Source: a candidate division WOR-3 bacterium (lineage in GTDB: Bacteria; Hydrothermota; UBA3073; JACQXS01; JAGMCI01). From it: a stretch of 64,000 nucleotides of DNA. The stretch lies in NCBI GenBank assembly GCA_023129325.1, contig JAGMCI010000021.1, forward strand, positions 3,712 through 67,711, read 5' to 3'. Of the stretch, positions 43,482 to 58,569 are shown one piece after another (positions within the stretch are counted from its first letter, which is position 1; every line of letters starts with the position of its first letter). The position numbers were made by a program, and so were the translations under genes. The notes beneath the pieces were generated by a model. It searched no databases. It saw only the letters and a program-made list of their open reading frames with translations, and was not told where the DNA came from.

Positions 43482-43498
43482 TTCGTTAGCTAACGGAT
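43482..43498. repeat. TCCGTTAGCTAACGGA-family palindrome at the aldolase 3' end
   Basis: TTCGTTAGCTAACGGAT. The gene's TAA stop (43486-43488) lies inside it. Confidence 0.75.
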
Positions 43499-44292
43499 TG
43501 CATTTTGATTTTCGAATTGAACAGCTCAAAAGCTTTATCAACTGATGCTTTTTTATGAACGATAGAGCGAACTGCTTGAATCATTGCCACAGGATGGTTG
43601 GATTGAAATATATTTCTTCCCATATCCACGCCACAAGCTCCTTTTTGAATGGCATTAAAGGCAAGTTTTAAGGCATCGTGTTCTGGTATCTTTTTGCCAC
43701 CTGCAATAATTATAGGAACAGGACAAGTTTTAACTACTTTTTCAAACCCTTCACAATAATAAGTTTTTACAAAATGCGCACCAAGTTCAGCAGCAATACG
43801 ACAGGCTAAGGCAAGATACTTTGCACCGCGACCCATCTCTTTTCCAACAGCTGTGACTGCTAAAACAGGGATACCATATTTTTCACCTTCATTTACAAGT
43901 TCTGATAGATTAATTAGTGTCTGATGCTCATATTTGCTACCTACATAGATAGAGAGAGTCATAGCACATACATTAAGCCTAATTGCTTCTTCTATATTGG
44001 TTGTAATACTTTCATTAGAAAGGTCATCACCAACAATACTATTGCCGCCAGATACTCTTAAAACAATTGGAATATCATTATTAGGGTCTACTGAAGTGCG
44101 TAATACCCCACGAGTAAGCATCAATGAATCAGCATAAGGAAGGAGTGGCTTAATAGTTTTGCCAGGTATTTCCAAACCACTTGTGGGTCCCAAAAAATAA
44201 CCATGGTCTACTGCTAACATAACAGTATGCCCTGTTTCGGGCTTAATTATTCTTGCTAACCTATTCTTTAATCCCCAATCCATTTTAAACAC
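43486..44292 (-). CDS. DhnA/LsrF-type class I aldolase
   Basis: 268 aa. AVDHG, a Schiff-base-type lysine context (HFVKTYY), IAGG and GRNIFQ motifs. SD is GAGGAGG. The stop codon lies inside a palindromic element. Confidence 0.7.
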   Translation of the reverse strand: MFKMDWGLKNRLARIIKPETGHTVMLAVDHGYFLGPTSGLEIPGKTIKPLLPYADSLMLTRGVLRTSVDPNNDIPIVLRVSGGNSIVGDDLSNESITTNIEEAIRLNVCAMTLSIYVGSKYEHQTLINLSELVNEGEKYGIPVLAVTAVGKEMGRGAKYLALACRIAAELGAHFVKTYYCEGFEKVVKTCPVPIIIAGGKKIPEHDALKLAFNAIQKGACGVDMGRNIFQSNHPVAMIQAVRSIVHKKASVDKAFELFNSKIKMQSVS

Positions 44293-44452
44293 CTCCTCTA
44301 AAATCTGATTTTATCACGGAATCACAGAAAAAAGAAAGAAACACGGAAAGGATAAAATTCTTTAATCTCTTGTTTTTTGAATTAAATACAAATTCTGTGT
44401 TTCTGTCATTCCGTGTTTCCGTGATTTCTTATTTCTAAACACCCTTTTAGGA

Positions 44453-44481
44453 ATTTTATGATAGATATAGAGTTTTGTCAA
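44453..44481 (-). promoter_or_regulatory. Promoter of the aldolase gene with a ~150-nt hairpin-rich leader
   Basis: Minus strand: TTGACA (44481-44476), 17 nt, TAAAAT (44458-44453). The long imperfect hairpin 44313-44425 lies in the predicted 5' UTR. Confidence 0.55.
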
Positions 44482-44511
44482 GAAGAAAAAGTAACCACAG
44501 AGGTCACAGAG

Positions 44512-56200: not shown

Positions 56201-57127
56201 TTATTTACTACCTTCATTAAATATCTTAGGGGAACTGAAAACTCTTGAGGATTCTTTTATTCTTCTTTCAGATAATTTTACATATTCTTTTTCTATCTCA
56301 TAACCTACATAATGGCGATTTGCTTTTATTGCGGCAATTGCTGTTTGCCCACTTCCCATAAACGGGTCTAAAATCACTTCACCTTCATAAGTATAGAGTT
56401 GAATGAGCCTGTAAGGAAGTTCTACGGGAAAAGGAGCCGGATGCCCAACTTTGCGAGCTGGCTCTGCCGGAAATGTCCAGACGCTCTTCGTAAGTTCGAG
56501 AAATTCTCTCTTAGAAATTGTGTTTCTTCTATTAGTATTTTTTCTTCCAAAACTCTCCTTAGAAAAAACTAAAATATATTCATGAATATCTCGTAAAGTA
56601 GGATTGGCAGCTGAAAGCCAACTTCCCCATGCCGTTGAAGGGCTGGCACTTGAATCTTTATTCCATATAATCTCTCCTCGCATTAAGAAGTTCAAATCAA
56701 GCATATCCCTTACTATAAAAGCATGGAGTGGTATATATGGCTTCCTGCCTAAATTTGCATTATTGATACATACTCTTCCTCCGGGGACAAGTACTCTGTT
56801 AATCTCTTTCCAGACTCTCTTTAAAAATTTAAGGTATTCTTCGAGTGTAAGATTCTCATCGTATTCTTTACCAACATTATAAGGCGGTGAGGTTACCATC
56901 AAATGAACACTATTATCAGGTAATTCTTCCATTTTTTCAGATGATTTACAAAAGATTTTATCCAAAAACTGTGAGGGGATGGGATTTTCTATATACTGGA
57001 CTCTCTTTTCCTTTGGCAATCCTTCGTATAACTTACTGGCGTAAAAGCGGGTAGCATCATGACCTATTCTACCAGGAGAGCCAAAAGCACTTGTTTTTGT
57101 CCCTTTATATTTGCGGTTGGTTTTCAT
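56201..57127 (-). CDS. Beta-class N4-cytosine/N6-adenine DNA methyltransferase (N6_N4_Mtase family)
   Basis: 308 aa. Catalytic motif IV SPPY (MVTSPPYN) lies upstream of AdoMet motif I DPFMGSGQT, which is the beta-class permutation. Confidence 0.9.
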   Translation of the reverse strand: MKTNRKYKGTKTSAFGSPGRIGHDATRFYASKLYEGLPKEKRVQYIENPIPSQFLDKIFCKSSEKMEELPDNSVHLMVTSPPYNVGKEYDENLTLEEYLKFLKRVWKEINRVLVPGGRVCINNANLGRKPYIPLHAFIVRDMLDLNFLMRGEIIWNKDSSASPSTAWGSWLSAANPTLRDIHEYILVFSKESFGRKNTNRRNTISKREFLELTKSVWTFPAEPARKVGHPAPFPVELPYRLIQLYTYEGEVILDPFMGSGQTAIAAIKANRHYVGYEIEKEYVKLSERRIKESSRVFSSPKIFNEGSK

Positions 57128-57186
57128 TTCAATCCTCTTGCCAGTAATCTACCCATCTTTTATAAGGGTCGTAATCAACATACAGT

Positions 57187-57215
57187 AATATAACCAATTT
57201 TTATAATATTGTCAA
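57187..57215 (-). promoter_or_regulatory. Promoter of the methyltransferase gene
   Basis: Minus strand: TTGACA (57215-57210), 17 nt, TATATT (57192-57187). About 50-nt leader with a GAGGA SD. Confidence 0.55.
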
Positions 57216-57249
57216 GTATTTGTTAAAAAATAACAAGGGGGGTCAGGAA

Positions 57250-58569
57250 TTACAAATTAAGAGTTAAGTCCGTCAGCTGACGGATGGGGCAAGTGGAACA
57301 GCTTTTGGTTTGGCAATAATGTTTGAAGATGTGAATCATTCCCTGGTAATAGATTTCTTTCCGCCTCAGGCGGATTAATTTTTGCTTTATGAGTAATCTT
57401 TTAGTCATTAGTTTTGTGATGTTGTTTTCTGGTAATGGCTTGTAATTCATATAGATTTGGATGATTTTATTTGCAAGGCTAAAGCCTTGCCCTACATTAA
57501 GGGTTGATAATAGAGGTAATACTACATTTAGAATTATTATTTCAACAGTTGATTTACCCATTTTGGCTTGAGAAAACTTGGCTTTTATTTTTTCAATGTC
57601 GGGGAAAGTAGTTATTAGAAAATTACAAATTCCATCTTGTATTATATCAGCTAAAAAATAACTTATATCTCTTATTCTTTTTGTTGGAAATATAGAGGGT
57701 CTAACTTTAAAGAACTGCCATTCCTCTTTTTTCATAGTCTGTACATTGCGAGGCATAAAGCCCCGCGCTACATTGCTTTTTTCATAATCCTGCTTACGCA
57801 TAAGTGCGGGATTGGGAAGCAAACCACCTACTTCAAGTAAGGTAACTTGAATTAACTTAATTTTTTCGCTTCTTGATTTATTTGAGGTTAAGGATTTTAG
57901 ATAATCTATTGGGACGAGTTGAGCAAGCTTTATAAATGGTTTTTCATTTTTGACATATCCTAATGATTCCATAATTCCTATATAAGCAGATTGTTCTTGG
58001 CCATAATCTTTTATAAGTTTTTTAAATCTTATCTCCCTTTCTTTGAATCGGGCTTTCCCTTGTTCTTTAAGGATAGAGAGCAATACTTTGGAATTAGGCA
58101 CATAAGGGCAAGTGTATTTTTCCTGTGCTTTTTTTTCTTTAATATATTCTTTAATAAGTTTAGATAATGGCTTTTTAATCCTGCGAGAGAGATTAAAAGT
58201 TTCAATGAGATTTTTACTTTCAGTAATAGCGGGTTGATTACCGTATTGGGTTACTACATGAAGTATTACCTTATTGTATTTAGGGTCAATTTGATGCTGG
58301 TGCTCAAACCAGCTATTACTTGAAAGGTGAATTTCAATATCACCCTTTAAGAGAGTTTTATCAAGTTTAATAATTGAATTTTTAAAATCAGGTCCATCTT
58401 CTTGATTTGGGATTCCCGGTGAGATTATTTCAATTCTTTTTCCTGACTCAGTTTGCAGGGGCGTATTGCCACTCCGTGGTGAAGGTCGTGGTGAACCATA
58501 CGCCCCTACACCGCGTAGTTTCTGATATTCCCATATCCATCTTATAAATTTTTCATCAAATTTTGGCAT
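57250..58569 (-). CDS. DUF2851-family protein, heavily colonised by palindromic elements
   Basis: The N-terminus MPKFDEKFIRWIWEYQKL matches the DUF2851 start pattern (..E.F..YIW....). At least six repeat-derived segments are read in-frame. The ORF track start at 58599 reads through an upstream repeat. Confidence 0.55.
   Translation of the reverse strand: MPKFDEKFIRWIWEYQKLRGVGAYGSPRPSPRSGNTPLQTESGKRIEIISPGIPNQEDGPDFKNSIIKLDKTLLKGDIEIHLSSNSWFEHQHQIDPKYNKVILHVVTQYGNQPAITESKNLIETFNLSRRIKKPLSKLIKEYIKEKKAQEKYTCPYVPNSKVLLSILKEQGKARFKEREIRFKKLIKDYGQEQSAYIGIMESLGYVKNEKPFIKLAQLVPIDYLKSLTSNKSRSEKIKLIQVTLLEVGGLLPNPALMRKQDYEKSNVARGFMPRNVQTMKKEEWQFFKVRPSIFPTKRIRDISYFLADIIQDGICNFLITTFPDIEKIKAKFSQAKMGKSTVEIIILNVVLPLLSTLNVGQGFSLANKIIQIYMNYKPLPENNITKLMTKRLLIKQKLIRLRRKEIYYQGMIHIFKHYCQTKSCSTCPIRQLTDLTLNL
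57269..57284. repeat. TCCGTCAGCTGACGGA perfect palindrome forming the C-terminal codons of the DUF2851 gene
   Basis: Identical to the core at 22720-22735. Read as ...IRQLTD... Confidence 0.85.
57360..57374. repeat. TCCGCCTCAGGCGGA palindrome inside the DUF2851 gene
   Basis: Read as RLRR. Confidence 0.85.
57473..57490. repeat. GCAAGGC-TAAA-GCCTTGC hairpin inside the DUF2851 gene
   Basis: Same family as 16076 and 61154. Confidence 0.8.
57748..57768. repeat. GCGAGGC-ATAAA-GCCCCGC(GC) hairpin inside the DUF2851 gene
   Basis: Reverse complement of 4611-4635. Flanked by the direct 8-mers TACATTGC (57742-57749 and 57769-57776). Confidence 0.8.
57793..57810. repeat. Half copy of the CCCGCAC palindrome (CTTACGCATAAGTGCGGG) inside the DUF2851 gene
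   Basis: Matches the right half of 54760-54785. Confidence 0.6.
58458..58506. repeat. Nested element inside the DUF2851 gene: a GGGGCGTATTGC...CATACGCCCC hairpin interrupted by CACTCCGTGGTGAAGGTCGTGGTGAAC
   Basis: The outer hairpin occurs uninterrupted at 61232-61251. The inner 27-mer occurs alone at 6880-6906. Confidence 0.85.

What the first reader, a model, noticed from the sequence alone, without database searches (positions are those of the whole stretch)
43482..57284. Palindromic elements supply stop codons and rewrite gene 3' ends
There are four cases.
1. The GlmL-like gene ends ...ATC AAT CCG CCT TAG, with the TAG (52822-52824) being the loop of TCCGCC-TTA-GGCGGA.
2. The aldolase gene ends ...TCC GTT AGC TAA, inside TCCGTTAGCTAACGGA read on the minus strand (43482-43498).
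3. The DUF2851 gene reads straight through TCCGTCAGCTGACGGA (57269-57284) and terminates 5 codons later (IRQLTDLTLNL*).
4. The MBL-hydrolase TAG (48718-48720) is part of the terminal CTGTGGCTA of element 48585-48719.

Loop variants seen inside genes (TCA, TCT, TGA read out of phase) avoid in-frame stops, whereas TAA/TTA(G) variants sit at gene ends or between genes. This is consistent with selection sorting the variants by frame.
Basis: seen in the sequence. Interest (0 to 1): 0.65.

Follow-up and report, generated by a model that had tools for sequence, protein, structure and literature searches.

The report
Tiny palindromic repeats reshape gene ends
An uncultured WOR-3 bacterium is riddled with very short GC-rich palindromic repeats, and a few that landed in the last codons of genes now provide the stop codon, but the protein changes are tiny and the effect is already known from other bacterial mini-transposons.

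Summary
All four cases are in the sequence, with small corrections: the aldolase palindrome is imperfect (TTCG...CGGA, 43482-43497).

The window comes from a candidate division WOR-3 metagenome genome (36% GC). It carries two palindrome families far above chance:
- Family A: TCCGCC-NNN-GGCGGA, 15 nt, 9 copies.
- Family B: TCCGTYAGCTRACGGA, 16 nt, 5 copies.
It also carries ~135-bp hairpin elements built from CACAGA heptamers.

Orthologue comparison:
1. GlmL-like gene: the palindrome's TAG is the present stop. Relatives have longer or different tails.
2. Aldolase: a 19-nt insertion (16-nt palindrome plus a 3-nt direct repeat) sits inside the last codons. The tail changed from ...MQSVK* to ...MQSVS*.
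3. DUF2851 gene: the tail after the conserved CPI[KR] is read from the palindrome and its flank. The ancestral state cannot be rebuilt.
4. MBL hydrolase: the stop overlaps the element terminus. At most about 3 residues were lost, possibly none.

"Loop variants sorted by frame" cannot be shown with 9 copies. A clearer frame filter is length: 15-nt copies sit inside ORFs, 16-nt copies never do (p≈0.03).

The phenomenon is known (Coxiella QMITEs, Rickettsia RPEs). The elements themselves are unusually short and undescribed. Verdict: real, partly supported, a new variant of a known kind.

The parts
52815..52829 (.). Family A palindrome TCCGCCTTAGGCGGA. Its TAG (52822-52824) is the present stop of the GlmL-like gene. 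The likely inserted unit is 19 nt (52815-52833), flanked by TCAA/CAA on both sides.
52858..52860 (+). In-frame TAA, 12 codons after the palindrome's TAG. It is the positional homologue of the TGA stop of the 76%-identical relative L028 (ACC TAA GGTAAT against ACC TGA GGTAAT).
52830..52857 (+). AT-rich heptamer array (TCAAAATGCAAAAATCAAAATTACAA) that replaced the ancestral GlmL tail. It contains ATG 52835, the start of the downstream gene, which lies 5 nt after AGGCGGA.
   Evidence: (I16)
51925..51939 (.). Family A copy (TCCACCTCAGGCGGA) inside the GlmL-like gene. It is a net +12 nt against L028 and encodes STSGG.
43482..43497 (.). Degenerate family B palindrome. It holds the aldolase stop TAA (complement of 43486-43488). 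The 19-nt insertion is 43482-43500, with TTG direct repeats at 43479-43481 and 43498-43500.
43498..43512 (-). AT-heptamer array AAAATCAAAATGCAA encoding the aldolase tail SKIKMQ. It is shared with relative L031, so it is older than the palindrome.
57269..57284 (.). Family B palindrome read through by the DUF2851 gene as IRQLTD. The stop TAA is the complement of 57250-57252.
57360..57374 (.). Family A copy inside the DUF2851 gene, read as IRLRRK with TGA out of phase.
48584..48720 (.). Long hairpin element of about 136 bp, built of CACAGA-type heptamers, with termini TAACCACAGA...TCTGTGGCTA and a central family A palindrome (48651-48665). The MBL stop TAG is the complement of 48718-48720.
38665..38790 (.). 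Second copy of the hairpin element, in inverted orientation and intergenic, with a central A palindrome at 38712-38726.
34994..35116 (.). Third copy of the hairpin element. It lacks the central A palindrome.
28110..28180 (.). Nested palindromes inside a GT4 glycosyltransferase gene. CCCGCC...GGCGGG encloses TCCGT...ACGGA, which encloses TCCGCCTGAGGCGGA (28135-28149).
23623..23637 (.). Family A copy (loop TCT) inside a 37-nt repeat. The same repeat occurs at 24211-24225 in the neighbouring glycosyltransferase gene. Both copies encode TSARGGLPV.
   Evidence: D10
60614..60628 (.). Family A copy inside the EtfA gene, encoding SASGG. The region is +8 aa against CarE (6fah). The copy is present in an independent Logan assembly.
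53812..53871 (.). GC-rich hairpin insertion of 54 nt (CCCGCCTGCC...GGCGGGCAGG) in the gene downstream of GlmL. It adds 18 aa that are absent from L028 and from all other orthologues.
6769..6952 (.). Two intergenic family B copies (6769-6784 and 6937-6952) in a repeat-rich spacer downstream of argS.
22720..22735 (.). Intergenic family B copy, identical to the copy in the DUF2851 gene.

Best explanation
The window belongs to a WOR-3 bacterium whose AT-rich genome has been colonised by several families of small repeats. These are 15-16-nt GC-rich perfect palindromes (A and B), longer GC-rich hairpins, heptamer arrays, and ~135-bp hairpin elements with inverted termini. They behave like very small non-autonomous mobile elements.

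Shown:
- Against close relatives they are insertions: +12 nt and +54 nt against L028, and +19 nt against L031.
- The best-resolved event is a 16-nt palindrome plus a 3-nt direct repeat (CAA), inserted at CAA^AAT.
- The same units occur both between genes and inside genes.
- They nest inside one another.

Inferred: purifying selection then filters the copies.
- Inside ORFs only copies that keep the frame and carry no in-phase stop survive. This explains 15-nt A copies inside GlmL, EtfA, glycosyltransferases, DUF2851 and RpoB.
- Frame-breaking or stop-carrying copies survive only between genes or in the last, dispensable codons.
- In those last codons the element's own TAG or TAA becomes the stop (GlmL-like gene, aldolase), or the ORF runs through it to the next stop (DUF2851).

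The stop supply is therefore a by-product of insertion into tolerant 3' tails. In cases 1 and 2 it is helped by a preferred AT-heptamer target that lies at those gene ends. It is not a function of the palindromes.

Not identified: the mobilising enzyme.
For: Copy numbers far exceed shuffled expectation.

None of the 17 genome-collection loci has the palindromes, and the closer relatives L028-L030 have no GC-rich stem-loop palindrome of these families. DNA alignment to L028 shows the 51925 copy as +12 nt and the 53812 hairpin as +54 nt.

Empty-site test:
- Deleting the palindrome plus 3 nt at 43482 restores the orthologous L031 sequence with 1 mismatch in 18. It also restores an in-frame tail, MQSVK*, against L031's MQNVK*.
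- Deleting the palindrome plus 4 nt at 52815 restores AAAATCAAAATGCAA, the same array found at the aldolase end and in L031.

Repeat-derived in-frame insertions occur in conserved proteins:
- GatA, +34 aa against 3h0l.
- EtfA, +8 aa at the palindrome against 6fah.
- DUF2851, +16 aa from a 30-nt repeat that is also intergenic at 6878.
- RpoB, a palindrome read as NPPLAE.

Length and frame filter: 7 of 10 A copies are internal against 0 of 5 B copies, p=0.026.

The central A palindrome is optional in the 135-bp element, present in 2 of 3 copies, and palindromes nest at 28135.

TAG is an ordinary stop in this window, used by 9 of 53 genes.

Precedent: Coxiella QMITEs overlap the 3' ends of functional genes and supply C-terminal residues or the stop (PMC5896051).
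Against: No transposase or RAYT-like gene was seen among the roughly 40 ORFs scanned, so mobility is inferred only from insertion patterns.

The 3-nt target duplication rests on one orthologous site and one paralogous site.

The internal copy at 51925 is +12 nt, not +15 or +19, so an extra deletion must be assumed.

In the DUF2851 gene the palindrome's left arm encodes the conserved I[KR] of the CPI[KR] motif. That is awkward for a simple insertion, and no clean excision restores an orthologue-like end.

For the GlmL-like gene two reconstructions conflict. The tail has the same length as in L028, with a homologous in-frame stop 12 codons on. A 19-nt excision would instead fuse the two genes in frame.

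Only 64 kb plus about 15 kb of one genome was examined.
Confidence: 0.7

Rival explanations
1. The palindromes at gene ends are selected functional hairpins. They could be mRNA 3'-end stabilisers, terminators, or translational-coupling units giving a stop for the upstream gene and a Shine-Dalgarno-like AGGCGGA for the downstream ATG, as proposed for mycobacterial MIRUs. On this view the stop supply is adaptive.
For: As RNA, the A hairpin is stable (-10.7 kcal/mol, z -3.6) and so is B at 57269 (-8.7 kcal/mol). In the GlmL case TAG is followed by GGCGGA, 5 nt, then ATG 52835. This removes the gene overlap seen in relative L028. Five further stops abut CCACAGA-element termini, which suggests a preferred 3' context.
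Against: Most A copies (7 of 10) lie deep inside ORFs in all three phases, where none of these functions applies. No sense-strand U-tract follows the gene-end copies, and the terminator-like calls are on the antisense strand. The aldolase copy is degenerate and barely folds (-1.7 kcal/mol, no better than shuffles). Relatives manage without the palindromes.
Confidence: 0.12
2. The gene ends are native and the elements merely abut them. Stops were already at these positions and nothing was rewritten. The overlap reflects genome compaction or a target preference for the TA of stop codons.
For: This applies to case 4. TA precedes RCCACAGA in 10 of 21 termini. If TA is a target duplication, the pre-insertion MBL end is ...KIDL TAG, which is unchanged. 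The same terminus abuts the stops of four other genes. Two of them (ArgS, DUF2520) end at or near the end of their last Pfam domain. MBL orthologue P0362 ends at the same residue. The aldolase kept its length.
Against: In cases 1 and 2 the palindrome lies inside what is ORF in relatives, and the stop triplet itself is palindrome sequence. Nine of 10 MBL orthologues continue 4-15 residues further. TA also precedes internal repeats of the motif (48611, and TAGTCACAGA in the 34994 copy), so it may be part of the element rather than a duplication.
Confidence: 0.12
3. The palindrome plus stop in the GlmL-like gene is a recoding site. A +1 shift near CCU UAG would yield a GlmL-downstream fusion protein like the single ~930-aa ORF of Fermentibacteria and Cloacimonadota.
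For: Orthologues in sister phyla are fused. The +1 frame is open from 52787 across the palindrome. A stable hairpin lies at the stop.
Against: CCU-UAG is not a known slippery site. All WOR-3 relatives have two separate genes without any hairpin. An open overlapping frame is expected for overlapping genes anyway.
Confidence: 0.03
4. The palindromes are assembly or sequencing artefacts such as adapter remnants or chimeric joins.
For: The source is a metagenome-assembled genome. A suspicious perfect 56-bp tandem duplication exists at 47929-48040.
Against: The ORFs that carry intragenic copies remain open. Where net length was measured against a relative or a solved structure it is a multiple of three (12, 54 and 24 nt). 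The same sequences occur in an independent Logan assembly. Copies vary in loop and flank like evolving families.
Confidence: 0.02

Closest known systems
Coxiella burnetii QMITE1/QMITE2 (PMC5896051)
   Same: These are small hairpin-forming repeats. All insertions that affect functional genes sit at the genes' 3' ends with overlaps of 1-50 bp. They confer the last residues or just the stop (ubiB: 2-bp overlap = STOP) without much change in protein size. They are hot-spots for further insertions.
   Different: QMITEs are tens to hundreds of bp, with terminal inverted repeats and direct repeats. Here the stop-supplying units are 15-16-nt perfect palindromes, and many copies also sit in-frame in the middle of conserved genes.
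Rickettsia palindromic elements (RPE; review PMC10969869; Ogata et al. 2000, from my own knowledge)
   Same: Palindromic repeats inserted in-frame inside unrelated housekeeping genes, adding peptide segments that the proteins tolerate.
   Different: RPEs are about 100-150 bp, found in an obligate intracellular lineage, with no sequence similarity to these elements. Here the insertions add 4-34 aa from much shorter units and from heptamer arrays.
Yeast mitochondrial GC clusters (PMC4478555)
   Same: GC-rich hairpins scattered in an AT-rich genome. They are flanked by 2-3-nt direct repeats (AG/ACT there, CAA here). Loops vary more than stems, and the elements merge and nest.
   Different: They are organellar, 30-50 nt long and mostly intergenic. 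Their mechanism is also unknown. Here the genome is bacterial and the units are about 16 nt.
REP/BIME elements and RAYT transposases of proteobacteria (from my own knowledge)
   Same: Short palindromes, often directly after stop codons, combined into mosaic elements.
   Different: REPs are extragenic, 20-40 nt, imperfect, carry a conserved GTAG head and are linked to a RAYT gene. None of these features is seen here.
Mycobacterial MIRUs (Supply et al. 1997, from my own knowledge)
   Same: An intercistronic repeat that provides the stop of the upstream gene and lies just before the start of the downstream gene.
   Different: MIRUs are 40-100-bp tandem units containing small ORFs. Here a single 15-nt palindrome is involved.

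Membership tests
MITE (miniature inverted-repeat transposable element) | Length of about 50-500 bp with terminal inverted repeats | tested here: not met
   Not met for families A and B, the subject of cases 1-3, which are 15 and 16 nt in total. The 48584-48720 element of case 4 does meet it. It is 136-137 bp, has termini TAACCACAGA.../...TCTGTGGCTA, and folds at -51.4 kcal/mol with z -8.5.
MITE (miniature inverted-repeat transposable element) | Target-site duplication flanking each copy | tested here: inconclusive
   A and B: a 3-nt CAA/TTG repeat at 43482, confirmed against orthologue L031, and TCAA at 52815. Other copies show none. 135-bp element: TA flanks in 10 of 21 termini, but TA also precedes internal repeats of the motif.
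MITE (miniature inverted-repeat transposable element) | A cognate autonomous IS or transposase with matching ends in the genome | not testable with these tools
   No transposase domain was found in the ORFs scanned in the window. The rest of the genome could not be fetched.
REP / REPIN | Extragenic location | tested here: not met
   Seven of 10 A copies are internal to ORFs, including RpoB, EtfA and the GlmL-like gene.
REP / REPIN | Imperfect palindrome of 20-40 nt with a conserved 5' GTAG tetranucleotide, linked to a RAYT gene | tested here: not met
   The units are perfect 15-16-nt palindromes beginning TCCG, with no GTAG. No RAYT gene was seen in the window.
Rickettsia palindromic elements | In-frame insertion into protein-coding genes | tested here: met
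   Insertions are +12 nt and +54 nt against L028, +8 aa in EtfA, +34 aa in GatA and +16 aa in DUF2851.
Rickettsia palindromic elements | Units of about 100-150 bp belonging to the RPE sequence families | tested here: not met
   The units are 15-54 nt. The host is a WOR-3 bacterium.
Intrinsic transcription terminator | GC-rich hairpin followed by a U-tract on the sense strand downstream of the stop | tested here: not met
   Family A copies are scored terminator-like only on the antisense strand or inside ORFs. The sense-strand tails are TCAAAATGC, ACAAAGTG and CTTAACTC.
Known RNA families (Rfam 15) | A match at gathering score | tested here: not met
   Only tmRNA (33521-33897) and one tRNA were found in the window.
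Mitochondrial-type GC clusters (by analogy only) | GC-rich hairpins in an AT-rich genome with 2-3-nt flanking repeats and nested or merged copies | tested here: met
   The genome background is 36% GC. CAA repeats flank two copies. Nesting occurs at 28110-28180 and inside the 135-bp element. This is a resemblance in behaviour, not homology.

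The most novel reading that the evidence does not exclude
The 16-nt palindromes (TCCGCCTNAGGCGGAT and TCCGTYAGCTRACGGA) are an undescribed class of ultra-short mobile DNA in bacteria. They would insert as 19-nt events (element plus a 3-nt duplication) at CAA^AAT, be able to nest in one another, and be tolerated inside essential genes such as rpoB, gatA and etfA. Together with frame-shifting 7-nt arrays they would actively remodel gene boundaries. 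For example, they could re-split a GlmL-downstream gene fusion by delivering a stop and a Shine-Dalgarno-like sequence in one step.
Probability: 0.3. Interest if true: 0.65.

Novelty: new variant of a known kind. Interest (0 to 1): 0.45.

Why it matters
If the reading is right, this uncultured lineage shows how far selfish repeats can shrink and still spread, and how much insertion essential proteins tolerate. A 16-nt palindrome would be enough to move, to sit inside RpoB or GatA, and to redefine a stop codon.

For annotation it is a practical warning. C-termini, gene splits and 'lineage-specific inserts' in such genomes can be repeat-derived.

For the specific claim about stop supply, it adds a new example to an effect already documented in Coxiella, Rickettsia and enterobacteria. 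It does not add a new principle.

Tried and rejected
1. I first thought the palindrome had split a fused GlmL gene, because the orthologues found in Fermentibacteria and Cloacimonadota have one ~930-aa ORF. The protein search then showed that WOR-3 relatives all have two genes. The split is therefore older, though a secondary fusion and re-split cannot be excluded.

2. The genome contigs and metagenome-contig scans with GlmL found no relative closer than 43-49% identity. The useful relatives came from the protein search followed by contig look-ups.

3. An apparent empty site for copy 6769 at 55130 turned out to be a chance 18-mer match.

4. A TA target-site duplication for the CACAGA element looked attractive but is not established, because TA also precedes internal repeats of the motif.

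5. A scan of viral contigs for TCCGCCTNAGGCGGA gave 85 scattered hits. The multi-copy contigs that were inspected are GC-rich and unrelated.

6. The unannotated ORFs (44512, 48039, 55261, 4781) gave no Pfam or NCBIfam hit, so no candidate mobilising enzyme was found.

7. Two literature searches on REP elements and stop codons returned nothing specific.

8. No clean excision of the DUF2851 palindrome reproduces an orthologue-like C-terminus.

Full report
**Source and context**

The GlmL-like, aldolase and DUF2851 proteins are 100% identical to NCBI proteins from a 'candidate division WOR-3 bacterium'. Contig look-ups with other window proteins place the window on record DAOWLA010000070.1 of assembly GCA_030643605.1, a 107 kb contig.

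The window is 36% GC and about 89% coding. Stop usage is ordinary: TAA 32, TGA 12, TAG 9. Rfam finds only a tmRNA and one tRNA.

An independent Logan assembly of run SRR13892596 carries the same proteins and the same palindrome in etfA. The features are therefore not assembly artefacts.

**The observation**

All four statements check out; the coordinates are in the observation check.

The palindromes form two families.
- Family A is TCCGCC-NNN-GGCGGA (15 nt, usually TNA in the centre, so a 7+1+7 palindrome). It has 9 copies in the window, one of them with one mismatch, plus one more in rpoB just outside the window.
- Family B is TCCGTYAGCTRACGGA (16 nt) with 5 copies.

Shuffled sequence gives 0.05-0.3 copies.

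They are part of a wider repeat population.
- Three ~125-137-bp hairpin elements are built of CACAGA-type heptamers, with termini TA[AG]CCACAGA. There are about a dozen solo termini.
- Further GC-rich palindromes include CCCGCACATAA-TTATGTGCGGG, GCGGGGCATAAAGCCCCGC and CCCGCCTGYC...GGCGGGCAGG.
- A 30-nt repeat and AT-rich or GGAAGTG-type heptamer arrays are also present.

**Case 1, the GlmL-like gene**

In the Fermentibacteria and Cloacimonadota loci found, this gene and the next one form a single ~930-aa ORF. In WOR-3 relatives they are separate genes, so the palindrome did not create the split.

Relatives end RGRP plus 2-26 residues. The window ends RGRPLFSKINPP*.

A DNA alignment with the 76%-identical relative L028 shows that the 57-nt tail is unalignable but has the same length. 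An in-frame TAA at 52858-52860 is the positional homologue of L028's TGA, 12 codons after the palindrome's TAG. Read this way, the palindrome gives a premature stop and removes the overlap with the downstream gene. That gene starts at ATG 52835, 5 nt after AGGCGGA.

The flanks tell a different story. They read AAAATCAA|palindrome|TCAAAATGCAA. Deleting the palindrome plus 4 nt (19 nt in all) recreates AAAATCAAAATGCAA. That is the AT-heptamer array found at the aldolase end and in relative L031. Such an excision would put the GlmL-like gene in frame with the downstream gene.

I cannot decide between the two histories. In both, today's stop is palindrome sequence.

**Case 2, the aldolase (LsrF-type thiolase)**

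Orthologues end LFNS[IL]K plus 1-9 residues. One relative, P0245/L031 (80% identity), ends FNSKIKMQNVK* on an AT-heptamer array.

The window has the same array, interrupted by the palindrome. Removing 16+3 nt restores the L031 sequence, with 1 mismatch in 18, and the tail ...MQSVK*. TTG direct repeats flank the insertion.

This is the cleanest event in the window. It is a 19-nt insertion two codons... more precisely four codons before the old stop, and the internal TAA of the palindrome is the new stop. The protein changed only its last residue (K to S). The tail had already been rewritten earlier by the heptamer array.

**Case 3, the DUF2851 gene**

The conserved core ends C-x2-CPI[KR]. Orthologue tails after it vary from 1 to about 20 residues.

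In the window the palindrome encodes IRQLTD, and the ORF ends 5 codons later. The tail is therefore repeat-derived. However, the palindrome's left arm also encodes the conserved I and R, and no simple excision gives an orthologue-like end. The claim is consistent with the data but not demonstrated.

The same alignment shows two other repeat-derived in-frame insertions in this protein. One is 16 aa from the 30-nt repeat that also occurs between genes at 6878. The other is about 9 aa at the 57748 palindrome.

**Case 4, the MBL hydrolase**

The protein ends at the end of the conserved core (...DGMKIDL*). Nine of the ten best orthologues continue for 4-15 residues, and one ends at the same place.

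The TAG coincides with the tA[AG] that precedes CCACAGA in the element terminus.
- If TA is a target duplication, the native end was already KIDL-TAG.
- If it is not, the lost tail is EIT*.

The same terminus abuts the stops of four other genes: 3564 TGA|G, 7015 TAA|G, 33995 TAA|CC and 54890 TAA|CC. Two of them (ArgS, DUF2520) end at or near the end of their last Pfam domain. The change in MBL is therefore nil to trivial.

**What the elements are**

Against relatives they are insertions:
- +12 nt at 51925 and +54 nt at 53812 against L028.
- +19 nt at 43482 against L031.
- +8 aa in EtfA against 6fah.
- +34 aa of heptamer array in GatA against 3h0l.
- Several inserts in RpoB.

Other properties point the same way.
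- The same unit can be intergenic in one place and intragenic in another.
- Units nest. At 28135, A lies inside a B-like stem, which lies inside CCCGCC/GGCGGG. A also sits at the centre of two of the three 135-bp elements.
- The three sites with orthologue DNA share the target CAA^AAT.
- The relative L031 has its own, different GC-rich palindromes and heptamer arrays. The habit therefore belongs to the lineage, while the families turn over.

**Selection by frame**

The loop argument is too thin. It rests on 7 TNA-loop copies, two of which are not independent, and the expected effect is small.

Element length gives a cleaner signal. The 15-nt A copies are internal to ORFs in 7 of 10 cases and occur in all three phases without an in-phase stop. 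The 16-nt B copies are never internal: 3 are intergenic and 2 lie in the last 6 codons (Fisher p=0.026).

**Function**

The hairpins are stable as RNA, at -10.7 and -8.7 kcal/mol. The degenerate aldolase copy is not (-1.7 kcal/mol). None has a sense-strand U-tract, and most copies lie inside ORFs. A regulatory role is therefore not supported. A translational-coupling side effect at the junction between the GlmL-like gene and the downstream gene is possible but untested.

**Comparison with known systems**

Supply of C-terminal residues or of the stop by small hairpin repeats at 3' ends is documented for Coxiella QMITE1 and QMITE2 (PMC5896051). In-frame palindrome insertions are documented for Rickettsia RPEs (PMC10969869). 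The closest match in behaviour is the yeast mitochondrial GC clusters, which are GC-rich hairpins in AT-rich DNA with 2-3-nt flanking repeats and mergers (PMC4478555).

The elements here fail the defining features of REPs: they are not extragenic and lack the GTAG head. Families A and B also fail the size criterion for MITEs.

I therefore file the finding as a new variant of a known kind. The carriers are unusually small and are not described in any paper returned by the five literature searches run here.

Noticed in passing
window 51112-53947; loci L001-L014, L028, L029: The GlmL-like (Pfam MutL, PF13941) gene and the following gene, which has weak RnfC_N and biotin-lipoyl-like hits, form one fused ~930-aa ORF in most of the Fermentibacteria and Cloacimonadota loci found. 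They are two genes in WOR-3. In L029 the second gene is further split by a TAA with an ATG restart.
   Followed up: partly
window 50644-50750 (gatA); L035 997-4716 (rpoB): In-frame heptamer arrays (GGAAGTG/TCAGAAG types) add 34 aa (WEVGSGK.../SEVRGQK...) to GatA and EVGSG repeats to RpoB. The same heptamers form the arms of the 135-bp hairpin element.
   Followed up: partly
window 47929-48040: A perfect 56-bp tandem duplication lies at the end of the MetH-like gene (45651-47987). The second copy starts with the in-frame TAG. With one copy removed the protein would end ...KNLIET* (3 aa longer). The length is close to a common assembler k-mer, so this may be an assembly artefact.
   Followed up: partly
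window 3564, 7015, 33995, 48718, 54890: Five stop codons are fused to, or overlap, the A[AG]CCACAGA terminus of the heptamer elements. The terminus contains two CACAGA[GT] boxes one helical turn apart, which looks like a protein-binding site.
   Followed up: partly
window 55261-57127 (-): An N6/N4 DNA methyltransferase gene (56201-57127) lies next to an unannotated 291-aa ORF with no family hit. This may be a restriction-modification pair, and it sits beside the repeat-laden DUF2851 gene. Family A contains CCTNAGG and family B contains CAGCTG or AGCT, which are both classic type II sites. No link was tested.
   Followed up: no
window 33521-33897: A tmRNA gene (165 bits) is embedded between CACAGA-type repeat termini at 33330-33469 and at 33995.
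   Followed up: no
L031 1-330; L028 1-400: Relatives carry their own repeat families. L031 has GGACAGGTCTAAAGACCTGTCC palindromes and GTTCAGR heptamers. L028 has ATCCGTG heptamers and a ...GGGGCTAAAG terminus resembling the window's ...CTGTGGCTAAAGG.
   Followed up: no
window 6878-6907 and 58469-58498; 4558-4590 and 63561-63590: The same 30-nt units occur once between genes and once inside a gene. The genes are DUF2851 (as GSPRPSPRSG) and phosphoglycerate mutase.
   Followed up: partly
window 60614-60643: The right arm of the palindrome in etfA is partly duplicated in tandem (GGCGGATAAGGCGGATTG).
   Followed up: no
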